From Dehalococcoidales bacterium (GTDB lineage: Bacteria; Chloroflexota; Dehalococcoidia; Dehalococcoidales; RBG-16-60-22), in the NCBI GenBank assembly GCA_016930185.1, contig JAFGHK010000033.1, positions 4,034-68,033 on the forward strand: a DNA stretch of 64,000 nucleotides, in the 5' to 3' direction. A program made the position numbers and the translations under genes. This document shows positions 8,201 to 62,058 of this stretch, one piece after another. The notes under the pieces are model-generated. The model was not told the DNA's origin and searched no databases. It was given only the letters and a program-made list of their open reading frames with translations. Positions within the stretch are counted from its first letter, which is position 1; each line of letters begins with the position of its first letter.

Positions 8201-8467
8201 GAGCCGGAAATCACACCGACAACCAACGAACCGGTAATGTCGCTATCTTCGCTAAGCAACATCCAGTCTTTTTCTAACAATCCTTCTTCAGAACAATCAG
8301 CACCGCTGCCTCCTGCATCGTCAACGGCACCAACTCCGACGACGATAATTAATCAGCTGCCCGATATACCTAGCTGGCTGATTTACCTTATCGGGGGGCT
8401 ACTGGGAATAGTCTTCATGGCGCTTCTGATAGTGCTTGTGATTGTGCTGAAAATAAGACGGTATTAA
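5285..8467 (+). CDS. BNR/Asp-box repeat cell-surface protein, architectural paralogue of 650..3835
   Basis: 1060 aa with a non-ATG start (TTG at 5285, so the exact start is uncertain). Signal anchor is VFYTVSLTTITIILLLNFTVFS. Asp-boxes include YKSTDRGFKW, YRSADGGMSF, TIDGGISW, SHDIGQSW, RSEDDGSTW and ESKDSGQSF. Two C-terminal repeats contain LDWETMNGATNYEWQ..YHWRVRA and FQWSAVIGAETYELLVATDADF..YYWKIRA. A Pro/Thr/Ser linker precedes the C-terminal TM helix and the tail KIRRY. Confidence 0.8.
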   Translation: MTLFFLKSKIRHVSNKHNGRYVFYTVSLTTITIILLLNFTVFSPHPVLTATPEVLRWTRVDIPAEGEVGGWALASGSDIKHLTAAADGTLYAYGEGLTYTLYKSTDRGFKWTSIGNVQDTIIDIAVSPYDANIIYYATVTAIYRSADGGMSFQLLPPSPGGAGTGNITITSIAITQLNNNIIAVGTRDTDNGEFGGVYILNEGDIVPSWTDSGIGSYDVYELAFSPSYVIDRQIIAVATDETDTFIHNKIGNADWDAFIGPSRLNRDNFIPQNAVVAEDAVITFPANYCADTSSGNSFFFVGIDTETGNGDVYKINCVDAPGESIATDLNCGAAYGETNTDITGLTVYYDGQHSIIIAGAASSCHIYTTIDGGISWEKSKKTPTGNTDTVVVAPDFATTGLIYAATSGNGSAISISHDIGQSWNQISLIDTAITSINDFTPSPNLNISSDIFMITFGGEYNLWRSEDDGSTWERILSSDIPGVDSLDMVGLPPQYGSNCQTLFAAGNSNGQPAVWESKDSGQSFQCRFTHEPGTGTAFTIYAWVITGETAFYAGSYNGSQAKIYRTMNSGFSYSEGARAGTDSFNSLVASPDFEEDGTLLAGNDNGGIYYSSDNGYSFQPLPFYTTTPPLTGFISVAFDPDFKTNQTVYAASDTPGSGLYRFIIGQSDEWQSIGGSLPAGAVVNRLAVSASGVLYAVSLNPDDGMERCLNPRWTTGPTFETVTLGLSSGATLSGLWQSTGRLWSIDSANGKLMTYYDTLTSPAVQVTPENGTTGMGSLVDHTVRNITLDWETMNGATNYEWQCTYNTDFSTIPAGLNGTTSASSIIITALEPATTYHWRVRARAPVYSPWSPKWSFTTCMDTEGVNLQPEMPAAGAEGVSVRPVFQWSAVIGAETYELLVATDADFMHPVIAKMNEYALSTNVWQCDVSLDYATHYYWKIRATTASTSSAWSSVSVFTTESAPAADETPPTEEPEITPTTNEPVMSLSSLSNIQSFSNNPSSEQSAPLPPASSTAPTPTTIINQLPDIPSWLIYLIGGLLGIVFMALLIVLVIVLKIRRY

Positions 8468-50300: not shown

Positions 50301-53300
50301 CGGCAACCTACTCACCAGTCAGGATCCCAACGGCAATACAACCACCTGGGCATTCGATACCACCTATCATGTTTATCCACTCACTAAGACTATGCCTTTA
50401 ATCGGCTCTGAAAGTTACACTTACGCCCCAGGCACTACCAACCTGCTATCAATGACAGATGTTAATGGGCAGACGACCACCTATGAATATGATACATTCC
50501 AGCGCCTGACTAAAGTCATTAAACCAGGAGATTCTTCCGCCAGTCCGTCGGTGGAATACCAGTACAACAACTGGGGCACCATCAACTACCAGAACATTAA
50601 AACGATAACCAAGGTAGATGCTACCACCTTCCTCTGGCAGACCCAGTACTTTGACGGGCTGGGGCGGGTAGTTCAAGTACATACCAACGGCGAGAGCGGC
50701 AATACCATTATTGCCAGTACCACAACCTTTAACAACCGGGGCATGGTGGACAGGCAATATGTGAGTCAAGATATCGCATCTATTCTTACCAGTTATCAAT
50801 CACCTGACGCCAGTTGGAAATATTCCACCTCAACATATGATGCTCTGGGGAGAGTAGTAACGCAGACCGGTGCCGACGGTACATCAATCAGCCATGATCA
50901 CAGCGTTGCCTGGCAGGATACGGTGACCAACCAGCGCGGCTTCAAGACGAGGTTCCTCTACGATGCTTTCCAACGTCTCGTTAAGGTAGAGGAGCTAAAC
51001 GCCAGCCACCAACTGTACGCCACTACGACCTATTACTACGACATTCTCGGCAATCTCATAGAGGTTTACGATAACAACAATAACACTACAGTCATGTTGT
51101 ACGACTGGCTTTCCCGCAAGACCGCTATGTCCGACCCCGATATGGGCGTCTGGTCTTACGGGTACGATAACAATGGCAACCTCGTTACCCAGACTGATGC
51201 TAAGAGCCAGACAATCACTATGACTTACGACGCCCTGAACCGGCTCGTGAGTAAAGTCTATCCTGTCGGTTCTAATATGACTAACGTTTACTACGTCTAC
51301 GATAGCACCGCAGGCGGTAACTACGGCAAAGGCCTACGTACCTCCATGACCGACGCTTCTGGAAATACGACCTATGTGTACGATAATCGCGGGCGACTGG
51401 TACAGGAAACCCGCGTTATAGATTCGATTGCTTATATCACTTCATTCACTTATGACGGCGCCAACCGGCCCGTCACCATCACCTACCCCACCGGTGAAGT
51501 AGTCACACAGACATATAACGGGCAAGGCCTCCCCTATTCCCTCTCCGGTAGCGCGGCAGGGAATCTCGTTACCGGCACATATTACAATAATCTGGGGTCT
51601 TTAACAGAAATCGACTTCGGCAACGGACTCAAGACAACTTACGGATATTATGATATGAACGGTATCAACGATACTACCGGCGGCTATTACGGCAAGCTCT
51701 GGGAAATCAAGACCCTGCCGCAGGTCGGCGGGGATGCCTTACAGGACGTCCAGCATACATGGGATGCTGCCGGCAATCTGGTAACGAGAGAGGATAAGTT
51801 AAATTCCATTACCGAAAATTTTGAATATGATTTCCTTGATAGATTAGTCAGCGGCTACACAGGGGAAAAGGATAACTGGCTTACCGGCTGGGCAAACAGG
51901 GTAAAGATTACCATCGCCTCTTCACAATTAGAAGGAGACCCAATAAACATCCCGGTCCTTATCCACATTAGCGCTAGCTGTGGCCAGGGTGGCCAAGACC
52001 TTACCGCTATCTTCGATGAATTAGGTGCTAACTATAAAAAATTGGCTGTCACCACCGATGATGGGCAAACCCAGCTCTACGTGGTAGTGGAAAAATGGGA
52101 TGCCGTTAACGAAGATGCCTTGCTGCGAGTCAGTAAAGAGGGCTGGCAAATCTCCAGTTCCGAGGATACAATCATCTATCTCTACTTCGATAACACCCAT
52201 GAAGATAACTCGAGTTATGTAATAGGCGAGTACTTCATTAACTTTTCAGTAATTGAATCACGGTTAAGAGAAGATATCACGATATTCAGCTTTTCGGAAA
52301 TAGAATCGCGTCCAAAAGCAAATGTGCGTGCTATCCTGGATAAAAAAATCACGGGTCCCACTCTCATAACCGGTGTTATGATAGGTCTTGTTTTTGGTAT
52401 TACACGTGACGGAGGCTCGGCTTCCGGCAACTATACGGAGTCCTATACCTATAACGAAATCGGCAATATAATGTCAAGGAACGGCGTCACTTACACCTAC
52501 GGGACTAAGCCCCATGCCGTCACATCCGTCGGCTCGATGACTTACAGCTACGACGCTAACGGCAACATGATTACCCGCGGCGAACAGACCTTAACCTGGG
52601 ATGCGGAAAACCGCCTCATAGCCGTCTCTGGTAACGGCACTACAGCCTTCTTTATTTGCGACAGCGACGGCAACCGCGTGAAGAAGCTAGAAAACGGTGA
52701 GACCACCATCTACGTTAACAAATACTATGAGAAGAACCTCACCACCGGCAATGTCACAACCAGCTACTATCTAGGGGGCAGGCTGGTGGCAACTAAAGAA
52801 AACGAGGTCTTAAGGTATGTCCACCAGGACCACCTGACCGGCACCTCTTTAATGACAGATAACACCGGCGCGCAAATAGGCGAGACGATGAAATACCTGC
52901 CCTTTGGAGAAACCCTCTCCGGCGCCTTGCCCACCGATAAAAAGTTTACCGGCCAGAGGCTTGACGCTACCGGGCTTTACTGTTACGGCGCAAGATACTA
53001 TGACGCCACCATAGGGAGGTTTACAAGCGCAGATACAGTAGTACAGAGCTATATCAATCCGCAAAGTCTTAATAGGTATTCATATACTTTCAATAATCCT
53101 CTTAGGTATATAGACCCTAGTGGAAATATAGTTGAAATTGGGGGGGTAGATGTCAGGGTTACTGAAACTGTAATGTCAGAAGGGGCTGCCGGTTGTTTTA
53201 TACCACCAGATCTAGCGAGTTCAATAGTCGACGCAGCCGAATCACCACTTTATCAGGCGTATGAGACTCTTTCCGCAGTAGAACCGCAATTAACAGATTA

Positions 53301-53841
53301 TCTTGAAACGTCTGATCTGATAACTTCGATAGGCATTGACACTGATACGCGGTTTAATGGTGTTTGTAAGCAACCCGAAGCAGGGGCATCTGGTGATATA
53401 GCTGTTGGTATAAGACCCGAAATGCTTGGAGATAGCGATTTCTTGGTCACTTTGTTAGGTCATGAGTTATTTCACGCTGCTATCGCTGATGATATGATCC
53501 ATATGGGATTTACTGATGACTGGTGGCTAAGAACTCCTTCAATAGCAAATGAACTGCTTGCGTATTCGTTTCAAAATAGAATTGGTAACGAAATTGGATA
53601 TGTGTGGGATGAGAATAATCCATTACACAAAGCGGTAATTGCTTTCGGTGGTGTTACACCTGTTAATATTTATAGTAGATTTGAAAGCCTTACCCAATCT
53701 TATATGGATATGTTTGGGACATCCAATCTTTGGCCTAATTACGGACACTATATAGGAGGCGGTATGAGTTGTAACGGTCCAAAACCCGATAATAATATGA
53801 ACAGCGTATTTTTTACACTGGCTGCCTGTAAAGTATGGTAA
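47362..53841 (+). CDS. secreted SpvB-N / YD-repeat / Rhs-core polymorphic toxin with a C-terminal HExxH domain
   Basis: 2159 aa. GGGGGAG lies upstream and a signal peptide is present (..LLPYGAPSVLGAQD). The SpvB-like motif is GLHSGTATYSYPLELPPGPGGFTPSVSLNYNSGSVDG..GIGWSL. There are dozens of YD repeats (YxYDxxGNL). The Rhs core reads YVHQDHLTGTS..KYLPFGE..FTGQRLDATGLYCYGARYYDATIGRFTSAD..NRYSYTFNNPLRYIDPSG, followed by a ~237-aa unrelated tail. Confidence 0.9.
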   Translation: MNGRIKFSQGLGICLFNVALAIILTCLLLPYGAPSVLGAQDERIPKKPTIIETQNAIVTPENETELSTSDKKIKIKIPKGTVDETVDFQLNKNLTPGSTGMKMVNFFELNVKEHNSENKVHQFKKNIEITIQHTQEELAGLDIDSLYLYYLDEDKGEWIPIPCEFDRKTLTLTAKFKHFSYFGEQANPLQSGPGKVTTAQVGLHSGTATYSYPLELPPGPGGFTPSVSLNYNSGSVDGMKNKRDVGSWVGIGWSLNLGRISYNAASGNYNIDLNGVSHKIVPNSDSIFYTQPEEYLKITKDGNTWSVYDKSGNYYRFGGTTDSEQYTDTSDYYRWDLSYWKDTNGNEATVTYVQDIWNNSVRSAYPEYLRYNNNLVEVHFLSSYYENGDYGPVRKDNPISYGTNPVPKNMENRQLDSIEIKVSGNLIRKYNFSYITTDRVYSSDYDGIYYSGKHMLMSITQIGTDGESSLSPTSFVYQYREVFRYANETEYTGNPGNPASITWPFLSAIDSGYGGSISFTYTQIPDTSVLNTWTRQAVTQKIINGGMGTTEIYSYAYTHNPQYKGVDWDQEFRGWNEVIETDADGNYLKHYFYTTGTISGKDAEKLTGKEYQTIWYDSANTLLKTKNYDWNRIDTSQNFTGSMTFYPDASPESSSVDGIVGETTKQSFASLVADVGDGSNDSIESYYICSLAADTVSNIWYNIFRGIFLFDTSGLPDNASITGATLSIYGYSKFDTVGWLPDINIYSSNPASNTTLVNGDYDSLGTVAFATAIGYNDWNTSGYNDFAFNSDGLNAISKTGISKFGTRNANYEVAGSPPTWASGQYYAMMGRFAESGEGYKPKLVVTYNMSSLYKVYLSNIEETIGTKTTRTEYVYDDYGNVITEKRHGDISTTDDDSTIHRVYYANNSTAYIVNKPARERVYATITEDVGGANLKKETFYYYDGNNALFTTPPTKGNLTRLEQKKDASNSISSYSTYDTYGNLLTSQDPNGNTTTWAFDTTYHVYPLTKTMPLIGSESYTYAPGTTNLLSMTDVNGQTTTYEYDTFQRLTKVIKPGDSSASPSVEYQYNNWGTINYQNIKTITKVDATTFLWQTQYFDGLGRVVQVHTNGESGNTIIASTTTFNNRGMVDRQYVSQDIASILTSYQSPDASWKYSTSTYDALGRVVTQTGADGTSISHDHSVAWQDTVTNQRGFKTRFLYDAFQRLVKVEELNASHQLYATTTYYYDILGNLIEVYDNNNNTTVMLYDWLSRKTAMSDPDMGVWSYGYDNNGNLVTQTDAKSQTITMTYDALNRLVSKVYPVGSNMTNVYYVYDSTAGGNYGKGLRTSMTDASGNTTYVYDNRGRLVQETRVIDSIAYITSFTYDGANRPVTITYPTGEVVTQTYNGQGLPYSLSGSAAGNLVTGTYYNNLGSLTEIDFGNGLKTTYGYYDMNGINDTTGGYYGKLWEIKTLPQVGGDALQDVQHTWDAAGNLVTREDKLNSITENFEYDFLDRLVSGYTGEKDNWLTGWANRVKITIASSQLEGDPINIPVLIHISASCGQGGQDLTAIFDELGANYKKLAVTTDDGQTQLYVVVEKWDAVNEDALLRVSKEGWQISSSEDTIIYLYFDNTHEDNSSYVIGEYFINFSVIESRLREDITIFSFSEIESRPKANVRAILDKKITGPTLITGVMIGLVFGITRDGGSASGNYTESYTYNEIGNIMSRNGVTYTYGTKPHAVTSVGSMTYSYDANGNMITRGEQTLTWDAENRLIAVSGNGTTAFFICDSDGNRVKKLENGETTIYVNKYYEKNLTTGNVTTSYYLGGRLVATKENEVLRYVHQDHLTGTSLMTDNTGAQIGETMKYLPFGETLSGALPTDKKFTGQRLDATGLYCYGARYYDATIGRFTSADTVVQSYINPQSLNRYSYTFNNPLRYIDPSGNIVEIGGVDVRVTETVMSEGAAGCFIPPDLASSIVDAAESPLYQAYETLSAVEPQLTDYLETSDLITSIGIDTDTRFNGVCKQPEAGASGDIAVGIRPEMLGDSDFLVTLLGHELFHAAIADDMIHMGFTDDWWLRTPSIANELLAYSFQNRIGNEIGYVWDENNPLHKAVIAFGGVTPVNIYSRFESLTQSYMDMFGTSNLWPNYGHYIGGGMSCNGPKPDNNMNSVFFTLAACKVW
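53125..53838 (+). other. variable C-terminal toxin domain of the Rhs protein (putative zinc metallopeptidase)
   Basis: It begins right after the DPSG core boundary (GAC CCT AGT GGA at 53113-53124). It contains LLGHELFHAA (HExxH) with a downstream ANELLAY that could supply a third ligand. Confidence 0.55.
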
Positions 53842-53880: not shown

Positions 53881-54465
53881 ATGACAAGTATCAAAAGAGC
53901 CTCGTTTTTACACTCAATTTCAATATTTCTTATTATGGCTTTCTTCCTCGGTATTATCATGACCGGGTGCAGTGGATATAAAGAAGTCACCTTAACCAGA
54001 AAAGGAATTCAGTTTTCTTTCGAATACCCTTCATCATACGAAGAGTTCTGTTATAGCTTCCAAAGTGAAGATTTTTACGTAGGACTCGTGCGGTATTCAG
54101 TTGATAGCCAGGAAAGGTTAGTAGATAGAAAAATTGATATATATATTTTTAAGACAGATATAGGGCGCCCTGATGCGACCTCATCCTTAAATTCATTTCT
54201 TGAAAACAGAGTCTTCGACTATGAAGAATTCCAGCTGCTTGAAAGGTCTTCAGTGAAAGTCTCCGGTATTGATGGGGAATTGATAATTTATTCTGGATAT
54301 TACGATATTGGATATTTTATTTCAGAGCATTTAAAGGTTTGGGCAGTATACCTTGATTATAAAGACATTATATGGATTTTAATTATTTCCTCCGCCATCG
54401 ATACTTCAGATGGAGCTGAAGCTGAATTTCAGCACTTTATTGATACTTTTAGATTTCTAAATTAA
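53881..54465 (+). CDS. hypothetical lipoprotein; positional candidate for the Rhs immunity protein
   Basis: 194 aa, starting 40 nt after the toxin stop on the same strand. The lipobox is GIIMTGCSG. It is AT-rich with no recognisable domain. Confidence 0.45.
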   Translation: MTSIKRASFLHSISIFLIMAFFLGIIMTGCSGYKEVTLTRKGIQFSFEYPSSYEEFCYSFQSEDFYVGLVRYSVDSQERLVDRKIDIYIFKTDIGRPDATSSLNSFLENRVFDYEEFQLLERSSVKVSGIDGELIIYSGYYDIGYFISEHLKVWAVYLDYKDIIWILIISSAIDTSDGAEAEFQHFIDTFRFLN

Positions 54466-54625
54466 CTTATTTCAGCACTTATTAACCAAAAGTCCCCCTC
54501 TCTTCCCTCAGGGCCTTTCTTTGTTTCTGATGGATACGTGGGAGAGTAGAATTCCCCGTCCAGAAAAAGCTGTCTTGGACATCCTACAAGCTTAGTCAGC
54601 TTTCTAAAAAGGCGATTATCGGTCG

Positions 54626-55333
54626 CTAATTTTCTGATTTACCTGAACTATCTTCAAACCTATACTCTGGTGCCATTCCCATTTTCGCTTGAGCTATAGC
54701 ACTCTGGCTAAACTTTTTCAGTAACTTTAAATTTTCCTTGTTGGTTTCCGCCCTTTTAGCTATCCATTGAATTATCCGTTCCTCTGGGATACCGATTTCC
54801 TGGGCAACTTCAATGGTCCGTGATGTTACTATAGTCGAGCGTTTGTCAGTCAAGTCAAGCTTAACCTCTATACCGCTGGCGATAGCATCCAACTCATTTA
54901 GTTCCTTTTCTTTATAGCTAATACCAGTTCGTTTATTGATATTGGTCTTTGGGAATGGTTCTTTTTTCTTCTCTAACGCTGCGCTTATTCTTGAATTAAG
55001 CATATCAAGACTGAAAGGTTTGACTATATAATCCAAAGCCCCTAGCTTCATAGATTCAACAGCAGTATTGACATCATCAATAGCGGTTATCATTATTATA
55101 ATTATAGACGAATCATATTTAGACTTTATCTCTTTTAGGACATCAATTCCCGATATCTCCGGCAATCTTATATCCAACAATGCAATATCAAATATGTCCT
55201 TTTCCATCTTGCGCAAGGCACTGTTCCCGTCAGAAGCGACTTCACAAAAGTACCCCAGATCATTCAAGTCCTCGGAGATAAGATCACATATAACTGGTTC
55301 ATCATCAACGATAAGAACACGGGGTTTATTCAT
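54626..55333 (-). CDS. response regulator (receiver domain) with an uncharacterised C-terminal domain
   Basis: 235 aa. The receiver reads RVLIVDDEPVICDLI..DIALLDIRLPEISG..DYIVKP. The C-terminal ~100 aa have no LuxR, OmpR or other HTH that I can recognise. Confidence 0.8.
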   Translation of the reverse strand: MNKPRVLIVDDEPVICDLISEDLNDLGYFCEVASDGNSALRKMEKDIFDIALLDIRLPEISGIDVLKEIKSKYDSSIIIIMITAIDDVNTAVESMKLGALDYIVKPFSLDMLNSRISAALEKKKEPFPKTNINKRTGISYKEKELNELDAIASGIEVKLDLTDKRSTIVTSRTIEVAQEIGIPEERIIQWIAKRAETNKENLKLLKKFSQSAIAQAKMGMAPEYRFEDSSGKSEN

Positions 55334-55500
55334 AATTTATCACTCTTTATTTCGTATTATTCCAGAGTCTATCAGAGTACTTCTCCTATGTCAATAACTA
55401 AATAATGAGTCAATTTGAGTGACAAGTAGTGTCATCAAATGCATGGTAGTCCTCTAATAGATTACGCCTTTTTACATTATATATACTTGACTTTTGCCAT

Positions 55501-55929
55501 TTGTCTATGTATATTGTTTCCATAATGATACGCACCGGCAATAATTTAGGTAAACTAATCAAACAAAAGAGGGTTTCAGTTCCATTAACTTTATGTGAGT
55601 TGGGTAGCAGTTCGGGCGTTTCTCCATCCCATCTCGGTAGAATTGAGCGGGGTGAGCGTCTCCCTTCAGCACGAGTCCTGCGAAAGATTGCTAAGCCTTT
55701 GGGTTTTAAAGAAGAAGAATTATTTATGATAGCCGGATTTTTATCTAGTCCATCCAGCGATCAGAAAAATCCTTCTGGTAGCTATCATTATTCTTCTAAA
55801 CTTGACCCATTTGTTGCCAATGTATTATCTCAAGAACCTGCAGAAGTTCAACGTGCAGTAATAGGTATTCTCAGTATGCTTAAAGTCATTTCGAAAACCA
55901 ATAAAAATAAAGCCAAGCCAAATAATTGA
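55501..55929 (+). CDS. XRE-family helix-turn-helix transcriptional regulator
   Basis: The HTH reads LGKLIKQKRVSVPLTLCELGSSSGVSPSHLGRIERGERLPSARVLRKIAKPLG. The start codon is uncertain (TTG at 55501 or an internal ATG). Confidence 0.75.
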   Translation: MSMYIVSIMIRTGNNLGKLIKQKRVSVPLTLCELGSSSGVSPSHLGRIERGERLPSARVLRKIAKPLGFKEEELFMIAGFLSSPSSDQKNPSGSYHYSSKLDPFVANVLSQEPAEVQRAVIGILSMLKVISKTNKNKAKPNN

Positions 55930-55952
55930 ATTTATTAGGAGGTAGGCTACAC

Positions 55953-56171
55953 ATGAAATCCAAAGCACTAAAGCAGTTGGTCAGGGAAATCTTCAGTGAT
56001 GAAAAAACCAAACAGCAATTCTTATCAAATCCAGATAGTGTTATCTCGCAATACCCTTTAACTAAACAGGAGAAACAAGCAATATTAAATACACACGCTA
56101 AACTCGGATTAGCAACCTCCAATTCAGGGCAACTGGAAGCAGTCATTGGCCCTATGGGTACTTGGTCATAA
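55953..56171 (+). CDS. small ComX-like pheromone/RiPP precursor candidate (72 aa, single Trp at position -2)
   Basis: AGGAGG lies 8-10 nt upstream of the ATG at 55953. The product is MKSKALKQLVREIFSDEKTKQQFLSNPDSVISQYPLTKQEKQAILNTHAKLGLATSNSGQLEAVIGPMGTWS. It has a helical, charged leader-like N-terminus and a Gly/Ser/Thr-rich C-terminus ending in the only Trp. It lies 22 nt upstream of the ComQ-like gene. Confidence 0.55.
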   Translation: MKSKALKQLVREIFSDEKTKQQFLSNPDSVISQYPLTKQEKQAILNTHAKLGLATSNSGQLEAVIGPMGTWS

Positions 56172-56193
56172 TGTCGCGCCATCATCTTACTAA

Positions 56194-57153
56194 ATGTGGC
56201 AAGATAGGCAATCAAGGCTTCTCTCGGAAGAAATAATTACGATTTTATCGTCCTCAATTGACGAGGCTGATCTATACCATTTGGTTAAGGAATCCTTAAC
56301 TCAAACTGGGCGAGGATTTGCTATCAAATCCAAAACTCAAAATTATAAACCGTGGCCACTTTTAGTTCTAGTAGCATGCGAGGCTATTTCCGGAAAATAT
56401 GAACATGCACTACCGGCTGCTGCTGCTTTGCAACTACATATGGCCGCTGGTGATATCTTCGATGATATCGAAGATGCAGATTCGAAAGATTCAATACCAG
56501 CAAGATACGGTATTACCATAGCTACCAATATTGCTACTACTATTTTAACTTTAGCAGAGAAAGCGATCACGCAACTCAAGAAAAAAGGTATTGATGACCA
56601 CGTAATAGTCAGTATTATAGATATAGTAAATTCTCTTTGTATTACATCATGCGTCGGTCAACATTTAGATTTGTCTTTAGCCTCAAATATTACTCTTTCA
56701 GAAGACATGTATTTCAGAATTATAGGCATGAAATCGGCCTCGCAAATAGAATGTGCTTGTCATGTCGGGGCATTGTTGACTACTACAGATCAAGACTTAG
56801 TAGATACTTTCGCCAAATTCGGTCATAATCTCGGAATGGCATCTCAAATTGCGAATGACATCCAGGGTATTACTACTGGAATTGACCTTTTTAAAAAAAG
56901 AATGACTTTACCTGTAATATATGCTTTAAATCAGGCAAATAAAGAGGATCGCTATCAGCTAAAATTCATATTCAGCAGACAGTCTGGACCCATAACCGAT
57001 TTAGAAAAATTAAGAAATATGATAACCAATAATGGCGCTATCTATTATTCGATAATAAAGATGGAACTCTTCAAACAACAGGCTCTTGATATTCTCACCA
57101 AAATAAAGGAGAAAGGTATTAATATAGAACGAATGAAGTTATTTCTTGAATAA
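56194..57153 (+). CDS. divergent polyprenyl-synthetase-fold protein, ComQ-like (candidate peptide Trp prenyltransferase)
   Basis: 319 aa. The first Asp-rich motif is AAGDIFDDIEDADS, with no following RRG. GQHLDL is present. The second Asp-rich motif is degenerate (QIANDIQG instead of DDxxD). KKRMTLPVIYAL is also present. Confidence 0.6.
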   Translation: MWQDRQSRLLSEEIITILSSSIDEADLYHLVKESLTQTGRGFAIKSKTQNYKPWPLLVLVACEAISGKYEHALPAAAALQLHMAAGDIFDDIEDADSKDSIPARYGITIATNIATTILTLAEKAITQLKKKGIDDHVIVSIIDIVNSLCITSCVGQHLDLSLASNITLSEDMYFRIIGMKSASQIECACHVGALLTTTDQDLVDTFAKFGHNLGMASQIANDIQGITTGIDLFKKRMTLPVIYALNQANKEDRYQLKFIFSRQSGPITDLEKLRNMITNNGAIYYSIIKMELFKQQALDILTKIKEKGINIERMKLFLE

Positions 57154-57168
57154 ACAACCGAGGTATAT

Positions 57169-59580
57169 ATGAGTCGAGTCCATTATTTCTTCAATAAACT
57201 GTCCGCAGACCGTGGTTTGTTTAGAGGAGTACTAATTTCTTTATTCGCGTTCTGTATTTTAGTTATATCTCTGACATTCTTTGCTTTAAGTATTCCTGAA
57301 CCTTATATGGGTGCTATGCTCTCAAAAAGTACTCAAGGCTGGGTTGTCGAAAGCGTAGATACAAGTGGTCTAGCAAGCGAAGCTGGGATACAGGTAGGAG
57401 ATAAACCGACTATAATCAACGGTCAACCAGCCCAAGCATTCTTAGAAAAATATGAGAATGCCGAAGTGGTTTTTGGAAGATTAATTAATGAGTTAGCCGT
57501 GATTGATAACGATGGTCAAGTGAAATCGGTAACGCTTGAGAACGCTTCACCTCCTGCTAGGACTTTAGTTGAAATATTAACATGGTTTATTGTCTGTTTC
57601 GTGTGTTGGGCAACCGGATTCTATGTATTTTTTAAAAGACCAGGTAATCTTACAGCATTATTGTTGTGCTTTTGTGGGTTAGCTTTCGGATTGGCTCTTA
57701 GTGCGAACATGGCAGTAGAAAGGAGCATTCCTTCTGCACTTTGGTTTGAGATTACTGCATCTGTCATTGGACCTTGGTTGCTGCTACATTTTTTCCTAGT
57801 TATACCTGAAGAAAGAGCTTGGCCTCGCCACAATCCCCTCGTATATCTTATTTATATCCCTGCACTAATAACACTAATACTTTTTCCTATCATCGGTTAT
57901 GCAAATGGCCAACCTTTGCCAGGTTTTCGTATTTTCAGGCTTTTTGAATACTGCGCTGGATTTGTTTTGGTAGCTGGTGTAGCAGTAATTAATTACATAT
58001 ACTCTATCTCACCCAGAACACGACAACAAATGAAGATAGTTTTAATAAGCTGTCTAATAGCTCTGATTCCATTTCTAGTTTTTAATATTCTACCGTGGAC
58101 AATATCGGGACAAACTATCATAACACCGGGATTTAGTATGCTATTTCTTGCCTTCATACCATTAGGTATGGGATATGCTGTGATAACTCAAAAATTAATG
58201 GATATTGATATCGTCATTAGAAGAGGTATGATTTATGGTCTAATTACACTAATCATGGCAGCTATTGTATCCGCAGCTATCTTCTTGGTCGTAAATTTTA
58301 ATACATCAATTGGAACCCCAATACAAATTCTTGCGGCTCTGATAGTGGGAGGGCTAGCTGCGGTTCTCTTTGGACCCATAAAAAAGAGGATAGAAATTCT
58401 GATAGACAAGCTATTTTACAAAGACAGATATGATTATCGTCAGGTAATCCAAAGTCTAAGTAACGCTCTCAACTCCGCAAATAATCTGACCGGAATATCA
58501 CGTCTAATAGTCGGGACTACGGTAAATACTCTGAATTTATCAGGAGGCTGCCTATTCATCAAGAAACACCCGGACTCTTATAAGATCGCTGCTTCCCAAG
58601 GAATATTTATGGATGTTGTAAGGCAAGAATATCTGCGAAAATTGATATCTGATACATCTAGTACAAATAGCCTAGTTGAATTTCCTAATTTGGCAACAAC
58701 CATTGACTCGAATACTGCATTTATAGTTCGCCTAGCAATGGGTGGAAAAGAAATCGGTATCCTTTTACTTTCTCATAAAATATCTAAGCAACAATTTTCA
58801 TCCGATGACCTGTACCTAATACAAGGAATATCTTCTATTTCTTCTATAGCGTTATATAGTAATATGCTTATTCACGATGTTAGCATTAGAGATACTTTCG
58901 TCTCCATCGCATCTCATGAACTACGCACGCCGCTGACTGCTATAACTGGTTATGCCGAACTCCTATTACGACGAAATCCTCCTGAAGGTACTAGAAAGAA
59001 ATGGCTTGAGAATATCCTTGATAACGGGCAAAACATAAGTAGAATGGCCAATGATTTACTCAATGTCACTCGTATTCAATCAGGTAAGCTCGCTCTAAAG
59101 TTACAGCGTTTAAATGTATCCAAGATTTTAGATGAACGACTAAATTTAGCGCGAGAAAATTCTAATATACATAAGTTTTCTATTCAAATAGAACCCGATC
59201 TCCCTGATGTGGTGGTTGATCGGGATAAATTTGGTCAGATCATAACGAATCTTCTAAACAATGCTATAAAATATAGCCCTAAAGGTGGTCGGATTACTTT
59301 GTCAGCAAATTATAACTCATTAAATTTTTGCCTAGTCATAAGTGTTGCCGACGAAGGTATTGGTATTAGCCCGGATGATACAAAGTCTCTTTTCACAACT
59401 TTCCACCGGATACAAAGGTCGGAGACACAAAGTATTAGAGGAAGCGGTCTTGGACTTTTTATAGCCAAAGAATGGACTGAGGCTATGGCTGGTAAAATTT
59501 GGGTAGAAAGTGAGTTGAACAAAGGGTCAACATTCTTTGTTTCAATTCCGGTAGAAATGACCAATCCTTATATCTTATAA
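57169..59580 (+). CDS. polytopic membrane sensor histidine kinase with an extracytoplasmic PDZ-like domain (ComP-like position)
   Basis: 803 aa. An N-terminal TM helix is followed by a PDZ-like segment (GWVVESVDTSGLASEAGIQVGDKPTIINGQP) and about 9 further TM helices. A GAF-like linker precedes the H-box SHELRTPLTAITGY and a HATPase_c domain (NNAIKYSP..DEGIGI..GSGLGL). Confidence 0.85.
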   Translation: MSRVHYFFNKLSADRGLFRGVLISLFAFCILVISLTFFALSIPEPYMGAMLSKSTQGWVVESVDTSGLASEAGIQVGDKPTIINGQPAQAFLEKYENAEVVFGRLINELAVIDNDGQVKSVTLENASPPARTLVEILTWFIVCFVCWATGFYVFFKRPGNLTALLLCFCGLAFGLALSANMAVERSIPSALWFEITASVIGPWLLLHFFLVIPEERAWPRHNPLVYLIYIPALITLILFPIIGYANGQPLPGFRIFRLFEYCAGFVLVAGVAVINYIYSISPRTRQQMKIVLISCLIALIPFLVFNILPWTISGQTIITPGFSMLFLAFIPLGMGYAVITQKLMDIDIVIRRGMIYGLITLIMAAIVSAAIFLVVNFNTSIGTPIQILAALIVGGLAAVLFGPIKKRIEILIDKLFYKDRYDYRQVIQSLSNALNSANNLTGISRLIVGTTVNTLNLSGGCLFIKKHPDSYKIAASQGIFMDVVRQEYLRKLISDTSSTNSLVEFPNLATTIDSNTAFIVRLAMGGKEIGILLLSHKISKQQFSSDDLYLIQGISSISSIALYSNMLIHDVSIRDTFVSIASHELRTPLTAITGYAELLLRRNPPEGTRKKWLENILDNGQNISRMANDLLNVTRIQSGKLALKLQRLNVSKILDERLNLARENSNIHKFSIQIEPDLPDVVVDRDKFGQIITNLLNNAIKYSPKGGRITLSANYNSLNFCLVISVADEGIGISPDDTKSLFTTFHRIQRSETQSIRGSGLGLFIAKEWTEAMAGKIWVESELNKGSTFFVSIPVEMTNPYIL

Positions 59581-59901
59581 AGTTGCATATAAAAATTGTT
59601 TATTACCCAACACTGCCACGCTTAGCCATAACAAGATCAGTTTTTGATATGGCGAATATCGGTATTAACAGTCAATATAAAGTCAACCACCGCATAAACA
59701 ACATACTTATCCTTCTATCACCGGATTAGAAGGTTAGAAAATCAATCATTTAACAGGCCTCTAAAAGGGTGGGTGCTTGTCCACATTTAGTGACAGGTGT
59801 ATAATTAGCCATGCCAAAAAGACTTCTTTTATTGGAAAGGTTAAACTTTAACAGGTAAATTTAATCTATTATGAAAAGTACTTTTACATTGTGAGGTTTA
59901 A

Positions 59902-60384
59902 GTGAAACCATTAATATTGTTAATAGGAGGCATCAATTCTGGTAAGTCTACTATCATTTCCAGTTTAACAGGTTGTCCATCTCATAATTTCAGAGAATTA
60001 GTCAGAGATAGATCTACTGGGCGACAAATCTACGTCATTTCAAGTTCTCCACAAGAAGATAGTCTTTCCCAAGGAGAGCTTGACCAAATTTTAGAAACAG
60101 TCCATCGGCGACGAAGAGTTATCGGTCTGGTAATAAGCATCCAGCCAACATACCCCCGGACCCGTCTTTCTCTTGAGAATATTATCCAAACCGTACAAGT
60201 AAATAGTCACTTCACGATCTTCGCATTCATTCTTGATCCGCCGTATTCAAGTGATGGTTCGATTGACTTAACTGATACCATTAATAGGTTGGCTTCTTTT
60301 GGAGTTGTTTCCCGTTATCTTGATGGGCGTCGTTTCGCTTACCTAAATGCTTCAGACATAAGACAAATAGTAGGTGTACCATAA
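59902..60384 (+). CDS. hypothetical P-loop NTPase
   Basis: GTG start, 160 aa, Walker A LIGGINSGKST. No further assignment is possible. Confidence 0.45.
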   Translation: MKPLILLIGGINSGKSTIISSLTGCPSHNFRELVRDRSTGRQIYVISSSPQEDSLSQGELDQILETVHRRRRVIGLVISIQPTYPRTRLSLENIIQTVQVNSHFTIFAFILDPPYSSDGSIDLTDTINRLASFGVVSRYLDGRRFAYLNASDIRQIVGVP

Positions 60385-60433
60385 GTTTTCTCTTGTTTTT
60401 TATAGAAAGGCTATATATACTTTGTCTATCGAT

Positions 60434-60502
60434 AGATTTAATGAAAAAGTTGATTTTATATGGAGTGTAGCTAATTTATTGCGCGGTCCCTACAAACCAG
60501 CC
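60434..60502 (+). pseudogene. short N-terminal remnant of a type I restriction-modification methylase (hsdM-like)
   Basis: The translation RFNEKVDFIWSVANLLRGPYKPA matches the HsdM N-terminal signature (..FIWs.AdlLRG.yk..). The similarity stops abruptly about 50 nt before the convergent TetR gene. Confidence 0.4.
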
Positions 60503-60555
60503 CTTTTAAGTTATGAACCTGATATTTTTGAAATGAGGCATCAGAGGCATCAAAC

Positions 60556-61074
60556 TTATAAACTTAAACTTTTTATCAGAATATCCGTCCGTTTTTCTAA
60601 TATTTCGATTGAGGGTTTATCATCCAGTATTCCTTTGTAAGAGAATACGATAACCTCGGCCAAATCAAAACCGATTAATGGGACGAGTGATTTTATAAAG
60701 TCCCCCCTTAATAATTGTTCACTTGTCTGGATACTTTTAACAGGTTTAAGCCAGATATTTGGCAAGGGGGATTTATAAATGATCCGGTGAGGGTCTATTA
60801 TCCATATGTCGATTATCTTGCGTAATTTTTGCTTAGCCGGCAGATCAGAATCAAGTACTTCTTGAGATTGGCGCAGATAATTTTTATGTTTCTCGTCCAT
60901 CATGGCAAAGAAAAATTCCTGCTTGCTTTTGAAATAGGTATATATCAGGGCTCTTGATATCCCCGCTTTTTGGGCCACATCATCGAAGGTCGTCTTATCA
61001 TAACCGTACTCTGCAAAACAGGCAGATGCTGCATCGATAATTTGGCTTCGTGTGATGCTTCTTTTATCTTTCAT
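60556..61074 (-). CDS. TetR/AcrR family transcriptional regulator
   Basis: 172 aa with the N-terminal HTH TRSQIIDAASACFAEYGYDKTTFDDVAQKAGISRALIYTYFKSKQEFF. Confidence 0.85.
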   Translation of the reverse strand: MKDKRSITRSQIIDAASACFAEYGYDKTTFDDVAQKAGISRALIYTYFKSKQEFFFAMMDEKHKNYLRQSQEVLDSDLPAKQKLRKIIDIWIIDPHRIIYKSPLPNIWLKPVKSIQTSEQLLRGDFIKSLVPLIGFDLAEVIVFSYKGILDDKPSIEILEKRTDILIKSLSL

Positions 61075-61272
61075 CAGCAGGCCCCACTTTCGCGCGTTAG
61101 GTTTCTATATAATAATTAGACATATTGACAATATTTGTCTAATATGTAAACATAAATCAACATTCCCTTAATACTTAACAGTAGTTAAGACAGATTGTCA
61201 ATCCATTCATCAACTTATCCTAACAAAAAAGAAAAAACGGAAATTATACAAAGATAAAATAGGAGGGACGCG

Positions 61273-62058
61273 ATGAAACACCAGGAAGCTTTTTTTAAAG
61301 GATACAAGGATTATAATATTTACCATCAATCCTGGCTCCCTGAAAAGAAACCAACCGCTATTTTGCTTGTTGCCCACGGTTTTGGCGAGCATAGCGGCCG
61401 GTACCTTAATGTGGTGAACCATTTCGTGCCAAAAGGTTTTGCTGTTTACGCTTTGGACCACCGCGGTCACGGGCGGTCAGACGGCGAGCGTGTAAATGTA
61501 GATAGTTTCCAGGATTATGTTAAAGACCTCAAGACCTATTTTAATATGGTAAGGAAAGAAAACCCCAAAGAAAAAATATTCCTCATCGGGCACAGTATGG
61601 GGTCAGTTATTTCATTACTTTATACCATCGAATACCAAAAAGAGCTAAATGGATTGGTCACTTCCGGCGGCGGCCTCACAAAACCCACCGATCCTCCTAT
61701 GTCACTACCCAAACCCGGCGAAGGCCTATCCACAGCTATGCTTAGCCGGGATCCGGCAGTCATTAGTGCTTATGAAAACGACCCTCTGGTCTACCATGGG
61801 CCGGTACCTACCGGATTTGCCATGTTCAAAGAAATATCAACATTATATGACACGGTACCACAAATAAAGCTACCGATATTGGTCATGGCCGGCAACGGCG
61901 GCCCGGATGGTGCGCGGAGCCGTGTCTTGCATGAGCGTATTACCTCAAAAGACAAGACTCTCAAACTTTATGAAGGTCTGCTCCATGAAATTTTCAACGA
62001 ACCGGAATACCCGCAGGTCATGGCTGATATGGAGAAATGGCTAACCGCACATATTTAG
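61273..62058 (+). CDS. alpha/beta hydrolase (monoacylglycerol lipase / lysophospholipase type)
   Basis: 261 aa with HGFGEHSGRY, the nucleophile elbow GHSMGS and a C-terminal His (GLLHEI). Confidence 0.8.
   Translation: MKHQEAFFKGYKDYNIYHQSWLPEKKPTAILLVAHGFGEHSGRYLNVVNHFVPKGFAVYALDHRGHGRSDGERVNVDSFQDYVKDLKTYFNMVRKENPKEKIFLIGHSMGSVISLLYTIEYQKELNGLVTSGGGLTKPTDPPMSLPKPGEGLSTAMLSRDPAVISAYENDPLVYHGPVPTGFAMFKEISTLYDTVPQIKLPILVMAGNGGPDGARSRVLHERITSKDKTLKLYEGLLHEIFNEPEYPQVMADMEKWLTAHI

What the first reader, a model, noticed from the sequence alone, without database searches (positions are those of the whole stretch)
56194..57153. Polyprenyl-synthase fold with an intact first Asp-rich motif but a degenerate second one (NDIQG) and no RRG
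Trans-prenyl diphosphate synthases normally carry DDxx(xx)D..RRG and a second DDxxD that binds the allylic and IPP diphosphates. Here the first motif is DIFDDIEDADS followed by IPARYG, with no RRG. The second site reads QIANDIQG. Loss of the IPP-handling elements is what one expects if the acceptor is not IPP, for example a peptide Trp. From memory, B. subtilis ComQ has a very similar first motif (..DIMDDLEDED..) and a non-canonical second motif. I cannot verify this here.
Basis: partly seen in the sequence, partly recalled or inferred. Interest (0 to 1): 0.65.

Follow-up and report, generated by a model that had tools for sequence, protein, structure and literature searches.

The report
ComQ-like peptide tryptophan prenyltransferase locus
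This gene most likely encodes an enzyme that attaches a lipid (prenyl) tail to a tryptophan near the end of a small peptide encoded just upstream, and the peptide is probably sensed by the membrane kinase encoded just downstream, so this is a Bacillus-style cell-to-cell signalling cassette in uncultured Dehalococcoidia-like bacteria.

Summary
ORF 56194-57153 (319 aa) has a polyprenyl-synthase fold. Its first Asp-rich motif (FDDIEDAD) is invariant. RRG is removed by a 4-residue deletion, and the second motif reads QIANDIQG.

I also found that the GKxxR motif is lost (Arg replaced by a conserved Trp) and that 9 residues carrying the post-SARM Lys are deleted. Real Bacillus ComQ sequences share both deletions and the loss of the first SARM Asp.

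The context settles the interpretation. In 92 of 97 related loci (the other five lack room or are distant), a 72-97 aa peptide gene sits directly upstream. It has a conserved NHLP-like leader and a hypervariable tail around one invariant Trp (window: ...GPMGTWS). An ~800 aa histidine kinase sits directly downstream. Its sensor (TM1, PDZ loop, nine more TM helices) is homologous to Bacillus ComP. A response regulator with a conserved, unnamed C-terminal domain lies nearby.

This is a Dehalococcoidia relative of ComQXPA, PalPXQ and StheQ/StheX. The enzyme is a new member of a known kind. The locus is a variant: a non-ComX precursor, a HisKA rather than HisKA_3 transmitter, a non-GerE regulator and X-Q-P gene order. 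No activity has been tested.

The parts
54626..55333 (-). Response regulator (235 aa): REC domain plus a ~110 aa conserved C-terminal domain with no family name. It is the likely output partner, the functional counterpart of ComA.
   Evidence: Pfam Response_reg E 8.6e-28, residues 6-116 only. Full-length homologues, including the C-terminal part, occur in 42 related loci (alignment A6). The C-terminal part gives only weak HTH or homeodomain-like hits, E 0.02-0.1.
55501..55929 (+). XRE-type HTH protein (142 aa), just upstream of X on the same strand.
   Evidence: Pfam HTH_3 E 3.5e-10. It is present in the same position in the closest loci L004/L005, L031, L064, L012 and L019.
55953..56171 (+). 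X: precursor peptide gene, 72 aa (MKSKALKQLV...QLEAVIGPMGTWS). It has a conserved ~60 aa NHLP-like leader and a short variable core.
   Evidence: GGAGG lies 9 nt upstream of ATG 55953. A homologous leader is found in 92 of 97 loci. Matches to NHLP-clan models are sub-threshold but consistent, 10 of 10 peptides.
56163..56165 (+). TGG codon for Trp71 of X, the predicted prenyl acceptor, second residue from the C-terminus.
   Evidence: Among 78 distinct X peptides there is no Trp in the first 58 residues and at least one in every tail. Trp is in register in 73 of 75 peptides and is flanked by the most variable positions, 3.2-3.6 bits. [quoted passage not shown]
56194..57153 (+). Q: trans-IPPS-fold enzyme (319 aa), predicted peptide tryptophan prenyltransferase.
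   Evidence: PF00348; structure model and Foldseek matches; motif conservation; profile match to Bacillus ComQ, prob 99.1%, E 6e-19.
56452..56484 (+). FARM region DIFDDIEDADS (aa 87-97), the predicted Mg2+ and prenyl-diphosphate site. It is followed by a 4-residue deletion where canonical enzymes have RRG.
   Evidence: F89, D90, D91, E93, D94 and D96 are invariant. The deletion is shared with ComQ. In StheQ the single Mg2+ and the FSPP diphosphate bind here.
56845..56868 (+). Pseudo-SARM QIANDIQG (aa 218-225), the predicted indole-positioning site.
   Evidence: Q218, N221, D222 and G225 are invariant. This matches the ComQ rule NDxxx and the StheQ residues Q212, N215 and D216; StheQ N215D loses 98% of activity.
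57169..59580 (+). P: sensor histidine kinase (803 aa), starting 16 nt after the Q stop codon.
   Evidence: HisKA E 1.6e-17 and HATPase_c E 4.4e-26. An ~800 aa ORF sits in the same position in all loci with room. Profile comparison with Bacillus ComP over the full length: prob 97.5%, E 7e-12, 680 colinear columns.
57286..57573 (+). Extracytoplasmic loop of P (aa 40-135) between TM1 and TM2, with a PDZ-like fold. It is the candidate pheromone-binding domain.
   Evidence: All 10 homologous loops tested hit Pfam PDZ families, and 5 exceed the gathering score. ComP has a PDZ-fold loop at the same place (PMC9620489).
57574..58377 (+). Nine further predicted transmembrane helices of P (aa 136-403).
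   Evidence: Hydropathy scan. Sensor-only hhalign against ComP: prob 95.2%, E 2.7e-8, 311 columns. Reversed and block-shuffled controls reach at most 5.9%.
58888..59556 (+). Transmitter of P: HisKA (aa 574-639) and HATPase_c (aa 684-796).
   Evidence: ComP and the L102 kinase carry HisKA_3 instead.

Best explanation
The ORF encodes a ComQ-type (trans-IPPS-like) peptide prenyltransferase, and it is part of a four-gene peptide-signalling cassette.

Proposed sequence of events:
1. X (55953-56171) is translated as a 72-aa precursor with an NHLP-like helical leader. The leader probably docks on Q.
2. Q binds an allylic prenyl diphosphate through its intact FARM and Mg2+. The chain length is unknown; farnesyl is the best guess by analogy with StheQ.
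3. Q has lost the IPP site (GKxxR, RRG, first SARM Asp, post-SARM Lys). It therefore transfers the prenyl cation to C3 of the indole of Trp71 in the disordered tail ...GPMGTWS. N221 and D222 of the pseudo-SARM position the indole.
4. Unidentified functions cleave off the leader, probably after the conserved QLEA(A/V)(I/L) segment, and export the short lipopeptide.
5. The lipopeptide is sensed by P, a ComP-type kinase (TM1, extracytoplasmic PDZ loop, nine more TM helices).
6. P phosphorylates the neighbouring response regulator.

Shown by sequence analysis: fold, motif pattern, family-wide conservation, fixed X-Q-P synteny, the invariant Trp, and homology of the sensor to ComP.

Inferred: the reaction, the acceptor, the donor length, processing, and the signalling role.
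For: - **Fold and motifs:**
- **Derived characters shared with real Bacillus ComQ:** the RRG deletion, the post-SARM deletion, loss of GKxxR, and first SARM Asp changed to N/G/S. hhalign of the family against ComQ gives prob 99.1%.
- **Published rules:** ComQ needs NDxxx or GDxxx. In StheQ from Chloroflexi, Q212, N215 and D216 line up with Q218, N221 and D222 here, at a constant offset of +5/+6 from the FARM to the pseudo-SARM (D85->D90, K174->K180, Q212->Q218). [quoted passage not shown]
- **Synteny:** X, Q and an ~800-aa kinase occur together in essentially all of 97 loci. The same holds at 44% identity and 28% identity.
- **X anatomy:** conserved leader, invariant Trp flanked by hypervariable positions, and one 3-core precursor.
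- **Kinase:** ComP architecture and homology, with negative controls. The L102 kinase links the two families: 99.6% to the window family and 99.3% to ComP.
- **Response regulator:** conserved in 42 loci.
Against: - No biochemical data exist for this family.
- By profile score, Q is closer to canonical IPPS (424.8) than to Bacillus ComQ (134.9). NCBIfam's best hit is the IdsA short-chain synthase, well below its cut-off. Convergent loss of the IPP site therefore cannot be excluded.
- X has no detectable similarity to Bacillus ComX (hhalign prob 0.8%; no PF05952 hit).
- The transmitter is HisKA rather than HisKA_3, and the regulator is not REC+GerE.
- No protease or exporter gene is conserved next to the cassette.
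- The NHLP assignment of the leader is below the curated thresholds.
- I could not obtain the StheQ or PalQ sequences for a direct alignment.
Confidence: 0.72

Rival explanations
1. X and Q make a prenylated RiPP whose main role is not quorum sensing, for example a membrane-active antimicrobial or surfactant. The kinase and regulator then serve only for autoinduction or immunity regulation, as in lantibiotic systems.
For: The NHLP-type leader is typical of RiPP natural products. The PalPXQ cluster was found as a RiPP cluster, and prenylated Trp peptides gain membrane activity. The biological role of StheX is unknown.
Against: The kinase sensor is homologous to ComP, whose known ligand is the prenylated peptide itself. 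The predicted core is very short, about 7-12 residues. No immunity, transporter or further tailoring genes are conserved in the loci. The hypervariable residues around the Trp resemble pheromone-specificity diversification.
Confidence: 0.15
2. Q prenylates a small-molecule indole or free tryptophan, as Ord1 does, and the neighbouring peptide gene is unrelated to its chemistry.
For: The Q model matches Ord1 as well as it matches GGPP synthases (TM 0.75-0.79). ComQ-type enzymes also accept Fmoc-Trp in vitro.
Against: X co-occurs with Q in 92 of 97 loci; the other five lack room or are distant. X has an invariant Trp at a fixed distance from a conserved leader. That pattern is hard to explain if X is not the substrate.
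Confidence: 0.05
3. Q is an ordinary chain-elongating GGPP or polyprenyl diphosphate synthase, as JGI annotation says. The missing residues are supplied from shifted positions.
For: Source annotations read 'geranylgeranyl pyrophosphate synthase'. The best NCBIfam and PDB sequence matches are IPPS enzymes. FARM, GQxxD and the KS/KT Lys are retained.
Against: All NCBIfam scores are far below the equivalog cut-offs (113.7 against 468). GKxxR, RRG, the first SARM Asp and the post-SARM Lys are all absent, and two of these are lost through deletions, so no shifted residues are available. An Asn at the first SARM position is invariant.
Confidence: 0.03
4. Q is a non-catalytic scaffold or regulatory subunit, like the small subunits of heteromeric prenyl synthases.
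For: Heteromeric IPPS partners also lose Asp-rich motifs (general knowledge of GPPS and HexPPS small subunits). Related heterodimers appear among the structural matches (3aqb, 9kp1).
Against: The FARM is intact and invariant, together with K180 and GQHLD. No second IPPS gene is present in the window or in the related loci.
Confidence: 0.03

Closest known systems
StheQ/StheX of Sphaerobacter thermophilus (Chloroflexi); bioRxiv 10.64898/2026.08.29.745113
   Same: Same phylum. IPPS fold, FARM plus a pseudo-SARM with Q-x-x-N-D. Residue numbering runs parallel to the window enzyme at +5/+6 from the FARM to the pseudo-SARM. The neighbouring ~70-aa peptide has an ordered leader and a disordered tail, and the acceptor Trp is second from the C-terminus.
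   Different: stheX lies downstream of stheQ, whereas X is upstream here. The StheQ FARM is D-E-x-x-D and its pseudo-SARM ends in Asp (NDxxD), against DDIED and NDIQG here. The paper describes no linked sensor kinase. I could not obtain the sequence, so identity is unknown.
ComQ-ComX-ComP-ComA of Bacillus subtilis and relatives
   Same: The enzyme keeps the FARM, and the first SARM Asp is replaced. It shares the deletions that remove RRG and the post-SARM GK. The peptide has a Trp near the C-terminus. The kinase has TM1, a PDZ loop, nine more TM helices and a cytoplasmic transmitter, and is homologous over 680 columns.
   Different: Identity to ComQ is only ~20-23%. X is not a ComX-family peptide. 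Gene order is X-Q-P instead of Q-X-P-A. The transmitter is HisKA instead of HisKA_3. The regulator has a different output domain from GerE.
PalP-PalX-PalQ of Paenibacillus alvei (PMC10853753)
   Same: A three-gene unit of histidine kinase, NHLP-type precursor with a conserved terminal-region Trp, and trans-IPPS-like Trp prenyltransferase. A Gln three residues before the SARM position is proposed to contact the indole.
   Different: PalQ requires Trp as the very last residue, whereas here Trp is followed by 1 or 5 residues. PalQ keeps Asp at the first SARM position (D200) where this family has Asn. The FARM-to-Gln spacing is 108 residues in PalQ and 128 here.
Ord1, all-alpha indole prenyltransferase (PDB 9V4G-J)
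   Same: Same fold. It is among the best structural matches (TM 0.75-0.79). The donor binds at the FARM, and Gln and Asp near the SARM act on the indole.
   Different: Ord1 acts on free tryptophan or indole, not on a peptide, and has no precursor peptide or kinase partner.
Canonical trans-IPPS (E. coli IspA; archaeal and bacterial GGPPS)
   Same: Fold, FARM, the GQxxD motif, and the Lys of the KT/KS motif.
   Different: This family lacks GKxxR, RRG, the first SARM Asp and the post-SARM Lys.

Membership tests
ComQ-type (trans-IPPS-like) peptide tryptophan prenyltransferases | All-alpha trans-IPPS fold | tested here: met
   PF00348 E 2.9e-25. AF2 model pLDDT 83.8. Foldseek TM 0.75-0.82 to GGPPS and Ord1.
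ComQ-type (trans-IPPS-like) peptide tryptophan prenyltransferases | First Asp-rich motif DDxxD retained | tested here: met
   D90, D91 and D94 are invariant in 32 sequences and aligned to the FARM of ComQ, IspA and GGPPS.
ComQ-type (trans-IPPS-like) peptide tryptophan prenyltransferases | Pseudo-SARM: first Asp replaced by Asn or Gly, second Asp kept (NDxxx or GDxxx; PMC5331326) | tested here: met
   NDIQG, with N221 and D222 invariant. ComQ sequences read GDY, NDY or SDY in the same columns. The rule is quoted.
ComQ-type (trans-IPPS-like) peptide tryptophan prenyltransferases | Loss of IPP-binding elements (GKxxR, RRG) | tested here: met
   The alignment with IspA and canonical relatives shows GKRxRP replaced by xxxWP and RRG deleted. 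Bacillus ComQ shows the same.
ComQ-type (trans-IPPS-like) peptide tryptophan prenyltransferases | Adjacent gene for a short precursor with Trp near the C-terminus | tested here: met
   X is at 55953-56171 and ends in TWS. The leader is found in 92 of 97 loci, and Trp is present in all 78 distinct tails.
ComQ-type (trans-IPPS-like) peptide tryptophan prenyltransferases | Common descent with Bacillus ComQ rather than convergence | tested here: inconclusive
   Two shared deletions and co-inheritance with a ComP-type sensor favour one origin. Against that, the profile score to canonical IPPS (424.8) exceeds the score to ComQ (134.9). A Firmicute-like group is intermediate, scoring 312.8 to the window family and 216.9 to ComQ.
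ComQ-type (trans-IPPS-like) peptide tryptophan prenyltransferases | Mg2+-dependent C3 prenylation of a peptide Trp | not testable with these tools
   This needs an enzyme assay with LC-MS/MS.
ComQXPA quorum-sensing locus (Bacillus type) | ComP-type sensor kinase next to Q (TM1, PDZ loop, multi-TM bundle) | tested here: met
   Topology. PDZ hits in 10 of 10 loops. ComP architecture. hhalign sensor prob 95.2% against controls of at most 5.9%.
ComQXPA quorum-sensing locus (Bacillus type) | Precursor belongs to the ComX family (PF05952) | tested here: not met
   No PF05952 hit. hhalign of X against ComX gives prob 0.8%.
ComQXPA quorum-sensing locus (Bacillus type) | HisKA_3 transmitter paired with a REC+GerE regulator (ComA) | tested here: not met
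   The window kinase has HisKA PF00512, and the regulator is REC plus an unnamed domain. The Bacillus and L102 loci have HisKA_3 and GerE.
ComQXPA quorum-sensing locus (Bacillus type) | Gene order comQ-comX-comP-comA | tested here: not met
   The order here is regulator (minus strand), HTH, X, Q, P. X-Q-P is also the order in L102.
PalPXQ-type cluster | NHLP-type leader on the precursor | tested here: inconclusive
   TIGR03793, NF038399 and TIGR04509 give hits in 10 of 10 X peptides, aligned from the N-terminus, but at E 1e-4 to 0.03 and below the curated cut-offs.
PalPXQ-type cluster | Acceptor Trp is the C-terminal residue | tested here: not met
   The last Trp is followed by 1 residue in 27 of 78 peptides, by 5 residues in 42 of 78, and by other lengths in the rest. 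It is never terminal.
PalPXQ-type cluster | Enzyme belongs to the PalQ sequence cluster | not tested
The published residues (D200 and D204 kept, FARM-to-Gln spacing of 108) differ from this family.
Canonical chain-elongating trans-IPPS (GGPPS/FPPS) | Second Asp-rich motif DDxxD, the RRG motif and the GKxxR motif | tested here: not met
   NCBIfam equivalog scores are far below the cut-offs.

The most novel reading that the evidence does not exclude
Uncultured Dehalococcoidia use prenylated-tryptophan lipopeptides as diversifying quorum-sensing pheromones. The enzyme-plus-sensor module (Q with a ComP-type PDZ/10-TM sensor) is an old unit shared between Chloroflexota and Firmicutes. It has been re-plugged onto a different transmitter class and a new regulator output domain.

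In this reading the kinase's PDZ loop reads the free C-terminus next to the lipidated Trp. The two tail classes (W+1 and W-x-A/S-P-x-P) and the multi-core precursors act as specificity and dosage variants.
Probability: 0.45. Interest if true: 0.65.

Novelty: new member of a known kind. Interest (0 to 1): 0.5.

Why it matters
Peptide tryptophan prenylation by IPPS-fold enzymes was long thought to be a Bacillus peculiarity. It was extended to Paenibacillus in 2023 and to one Chloroflexi isolate only in an August 2026 preprint, whose authors state that the biological role is unknown.

This window and about 100 related metagenomic loci show a complete and tightly conserved cassette in Dehalococcoidia: precursor, enzyme, ComP-homologous sensor and regulator. 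These bacteria are abundant, mostly uncultured, and relevant to subsurface carbon and organohalide cycling, and I know of no reported cell-cell signalling in them.

The loci provide a ready set of 78 natural substrate variants for one enzyme family. They suggest a testable ligand-receptor pair: the prenylated C-terminal peptide and the PDZ loop. They also correct a widespread mis-annotation of these genes as 'geranylgeranyl pyrophosphate synthase'.

Tried and rejected
- **Q-X complex prediction.** The tool also returns no coordinates.
- **StheQ and PalQ sequences.** No supplement text is held for the preprint. None of the 150 cluster representatives has the StheQ signature DExxD plus NDxxD. 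Cluster names gave only 'Dehalococcoidia bacterium' or JGI 'ComQ'. A tblastn against plasmids found only ordinary polyprenyl synthases.
- **L016.** This 34%-identity relative from a high-GC Chloroflexota MAG has FDDLVDQD and QIFNDLES, but I could not recognise an X or a kinase among the many spurious ORFs. I left it aside.
- **X as a diverged ComX.** A by-eye resemblance of the leaders was not supported by hhalign (prob 0.8%). Rejected.
- **Pherotype-like hypervariability in the kinase sensor.** Column conservation is about 0.6-0.85 along the whole kinase, with no clear contrast between sensor and transmitter. These are different species, not strains, so the test is weak.
- **Promoter and terminator scan.** The counts did not exceed the shuffled expectation.
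- **Second IPPS gene in the window.** None was found.
Full report
**1. The observation**

ORF 56194-57153 (+) encodes 319 aa that match Pfam polyprenyl_synt (E 2.9e-25).

HMMER alignments to solved prenyl synthases put DDIED on the first Asp-rich motif and NDIQG on the second, and they leave the RRG position in a gap. An AlphaFold2 model built from 32 family sequences is confident (mean pLDDT 83.8, pTM 0.84). Its best structural matches are GGPP and polyprenyl synthases and the indole prenyltransferase Ord1 (TM 0.75-0.82).

**2. The pattern is a family trait**

A homologue search returned more than 550 proteins. The best 120 are 54-85% identical, about 317 aa long, almost all from metagenomes, and mostly annotated 'geranylgeranyl pyrophosphate synthase'.

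In an alignment of 32 of them, F89, D90, D91, E93, D94, D96, G155, Q156, D159, K180, Q218, N221, D222 and G225 are invariant, and none has RRG.

A profile search of 1.84 billion cluster representatives gave 240 hits at E <= 1e-30. I tabulated the motif columns of the best 150, and they fall into two classes:
- A Q-type class has W instead of the Arg of GKxxRP, no RRG, and Q-x-x-N-D.
- A canonical class has GKRxRP, RRxxP and QIxDDIxG.

The alignment with E. coli IspA and the canonical class shows that four donor- or IPP-handling elements are missing in the window family:
- GKxxR is absent.
- RRG is removed by a 4-residue deletion.
- The first SARM Asp is Asn.
- The Lys of the post-SARM GK is removed by a 9-residue deletion.

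The FARM, GQxxD and the Lys of the KT/KS motif are kept.

**3. Direct comparison with real ComQ**

It matched P0272 at 100% identity over 100% of its length. The other hits are Bacillus proteins that their sources name ComQ or isoprenyl transferase, so the sequence is verified.

In a joint alignment, the Bacillus ComQs share several characters with the window family. Both have the 4-residue deletion after the FARM (DDLEDEDNH----HALW against DDIEDADSK----DSIP). Both have a 7-9-residue deletion after the SARM. Both lack GKxxR. Both have a non-Asp first SARM residue, with ComQ reading QISGDY, QIENDY or QIYSDY.

Profile-profile comparison of the two families gives prob 99.1%, E 6e-19, over 235 columns at 23% identity.

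One caveat applies. By score, the window family is closer to canonical IPPS (424.8) than to ComQ (134.9). A Firmicute-like Q group is intermediate, scoring 312.8 to the window family and 216.9 to ComQ, while ComQ scores 139.2 to the canonical class. Similarity alone therefore does not settle whether there was a single origin.

**4. What the literature says these motifs mean**

ComQ keeps the FARM and has a pseudo-SARM that must read NDxxx or GDxxx. Changing that Asn to Asp nearly abolishes tryptophan geranylation (PMC5331326).

An August 2026 preprint characterises StheQ and StheX from Sphaerobacter thermophilus, a member of the Chloroflexi. StheQ has 19% identity to ComQ. Its FARM residues are D85, E86 and D89. 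Its pseudo-SARM residues are N215, D216 and D219, with Q212 one helical turn before. K174 contacts the diphosphate. A single Mg2+ binds at the FARM and none at the pseudo-SARM. The N215D mutant loses 98% of activity. [quoted passage not shown]

The window enzyme's D90, D91, D94, K180, Q218, N221 and D222 match those positions at a constant offset of +5/+6.

PalQ of Paenibacillus alvei is a third example. It sits in a three-gene cluster with a histidine kinase and an NHLP-type precursor that has a conserved C-terminal Trp. A 2026 review groups these enzymes as 'trans-IDS-like' prenyltransferases and notes that all characterised members target Trp.

**5. The neighbourhood**

Look-ups of three homologues on long contigs showed the same triad each time: a small ORF, then Q, then an ~800-aa kinase, with response regulators nearby.

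A genome scan placed the family in Dehalococcoidia and Dehalococcoidales MAGs. A metagenome scan added 80 loci. Across the 97 loci, a tblastn with the peptide leader finds X in 92. Of the five without a leader hit, three have no room upstream, one is truncated but still has the core, and one is a distant relative.

The ORF immediately downstream of Q starts between -17 and +48 nt of the Q stop codon. It is about 800 aa wherever the contig allows. The same arrangement holds for a 44%-identical representative.

**6. The precursor X**

In the window, the real start is ATG 55953, with GGAGG 9 nt upstream. This gives 72 aa: MKSKALKQLVREIFSDEKTKQQFLSNPDSVISQYPLTKQEKQAILNTHAKLGLATSNSGQLEAVIGPMGTWS.

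Among 78 distinct X peptides, none has Trp in the first 58 residues and all have it in the tail. Anchored on the leader, conservation is high up to ...QQLEAA. A conserved Pro follows, then two positions at 3.6 bits of entropy. Next comes Trp, present in register in 73 of 75 peptides, then a position at 3.2 bits. After that comes either the stop codon (27 peptides) or A/S-P-x-P (42 peptides).

One relative carries three tandem cores, (EATLE)GPWSAP.

All ten leaders I tested hit NHLP-clan RiPP leader models. The alignments run position for position from the N-terminus, but the scores are below the curated cut-offs. X shows no similarity to Bacillus ComX.

**7. The kinase P**

The window kinase has TM1 at aa 21-39, a ~95-aa loop, nine further hydrophobic segments up to aa 403, a cytoplasmic linker, then HisKA and HATPase_c.

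The loop is PDZ-like. All 10 homologous loops hit Pfam PDZ families, and five exceed the gathering score.

Published modelling of B. amyloliquefaciens ComP describes the same plan: ten TM helices, a first extracellular loop (residues 27-111) with a PDZ fold proposed to bind ComX, then a cytoplasmic part and the transmitter (PMC9620489).

I extracted real ComP, ComX and ComA from three Bacillus loci. The window-family kinase profile aligns colinearly with ComP over 680 columns (prob 97.5%, E 7e-12). The sensor alone gives prob 95.2%, E 2.7e-8, over 311 columns. A reversed ComP gives 0.3%, and ten block-shuffled versions give at most 5.9%.

Locus L102 links the two families. It lies next to a Spo0E-like gene, so it is probably from a Firmicute. 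It has an X-like 66-aa peptide ending in SFWG, a Q at 28% identity with QIRNDLND, and a 781-aa kinase. That kinase matches the window family at 99.6% and ComP at 99.3%. A REC+GerE regulator follows.

The transmitter class differs between the systems. It is HisKA (PF00512) in the window and HisKA_3 in ComP and L102.

**8. The regulator**

The divergently transcribed gene 54626-55333 encodes a REC domain plus a ~110-aa C-terminal domain. Full-length homologues, including the C-terminal part, lie beside the cassette in 42 loci. They are either divergent and accompanied by an XRE HTH gene, as here, or co-directional.

The C-terminal domain has a conserved core, AIAxGVxxxVDxxDxxSxxVTxxTxxxAxxLGLPxxEIxxW. 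It gives only weak helix-turn-helix or homeodomain-like hits (E 0.02-0.1). Its function is inferred, not shown.

**9. Most likely mechanism**

*Shown:* an IPPS-fold enzyme has an intact donor site and a dismantled IPP site. It is genetically locked to a Trp-tailed peptide and to a ComP-type sensor.

*Inferred:*
- Q binds the leader of X.
- Q ionises a prenyl diphosphate at the FARM-Mg2+ site.
- Q alkylates indole C3 of Trp71, with N221 and D222 positioning the ring as in StheQ and ComQ.
- The peptide is trimmed, possibly after QLEA(A/V)(I/L). The repeat unit of the three-core precursor suggests that this segment is a spacer.
- The trimmed peptide is exported.
- The lipopeptide is sensed by the PDZ and membrane domain of P.
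- P signals to the regulator.

The small residues at FARM positions -4 and -5 (G86, A85) are compatible with a long donor, but the chain length is unknown. No protease or exporter gene is conserved in the loci. In Bacillus too, the protease that trims ComX is unknown.

**10. Novelty and verdict**

The enzyme passes every sequence-testable criterion of the ComQ-type family, so it is a new member of a known kind.

The locus is a variant of ComQXPA rather than a member. It fails on precursor family, transmitter class, regulator type and gene order. It combines a PalX-like leader with a ComQ/StheQ-like enzyme and a ComP-like sensor.

My literature searches found no description of this Dehalococcoidia family. 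The nearest report is the StheQ preprint, which mentions neither a kinase nor a function. Interest is moderate. The chemistry is expected, but a complete peptide-signalling cassette that is widespread in uncultured Dehalococcoidia is new and directly testable.

Noticed in passing
window 54000-61500: The cassette lies in a low-GC island. X-Q-P is 37.8% GC against 49.7% for the rest of the window. In 19 related loci the module differs from its flanks by only -0.07 to +0.065, mean -0.006. This suggests recent horizontal acquisition in this genome.
   Followed up: partly
L006:5680-5973 (also L007:3-191): One relative's precursor carries three tandem copies of the core...MDGPWSAP MEATLEGPWSAP LEATLEGPWSAP EP. 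It is a multi-core precursor, which implies cleavage on both sides of a ~6-residue Trp peptide.
   Followed up: partly
window 54626-54973 (C-terminal part of the response regulator): A conserved ~110-aa output domain has no Pfam family. Its core motif is AIAxGVxxxVDxxDxxSxxVTxxTxxxAxxLGLPxxEIxxW. It gives only weak HTH or homeodomain-like hits, and it is present in 42 related loci.
   Followed up: partly
L102:3794-8034: A probably Firmicute locus (a Spo0E-like gene is next door) has the order X-Q-P-A. Its kinase matches both the Dehalococcoidia kinases and Bacillus ComP, and it carries a ComA-type REC+GerE regulator. It links the two systems.
   Followed up: yes
window 47362-53841 and 53881-54465: A giant 2159-aa RHS-repeat protein has an SpvB-like N-terminal part and a C-terminal region containing an HELFH (HExxH-like) motif. 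A 194-aa ORF with no family hit follows it. The layout is typical of a polymorphic toxin with a downstream immunity gene.
   Followed up: no
window 56172-56193 versus 55934-55952: X has a perfect GGAGG Shine-Dalgarno sequence, whereas Q has no recognisable one in its 22-nt spacer. This fits much higher translation of the substrate peptide than of the enzyme.
   Followed up: no
L099:7175-9501: In the B. mojavensis record used as reference, comP is split into two ORFs of 309 aa and 461 aa, separated by 11 nt. The kinase may be disrupted in that strain.
   Followed up: no
related loci, X tails (e.g. L094, L086, L081, L058): 18 of the 78 distinct X peptides have two or more Trp in the tail, as WW or WxW. 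StheX likewise has WW, and only its second Trp is modified.
   Followed up: no
window 650-3835 and 5285-8467: Two paralogous ~1060-aa proteins have BNR/sortilin-like beta-propeller and Ig-like domains. They appear unrelated to the finding.
   Followed up: no
window 56194-57153 versus public call P0001: The public gene call for this ORF is 290 aa (91% coverage). It starts downstream of the family-conserved N-terminus MWQxRQ, so the deposited model is probably N-terminally truncated.
   Followed up: partly
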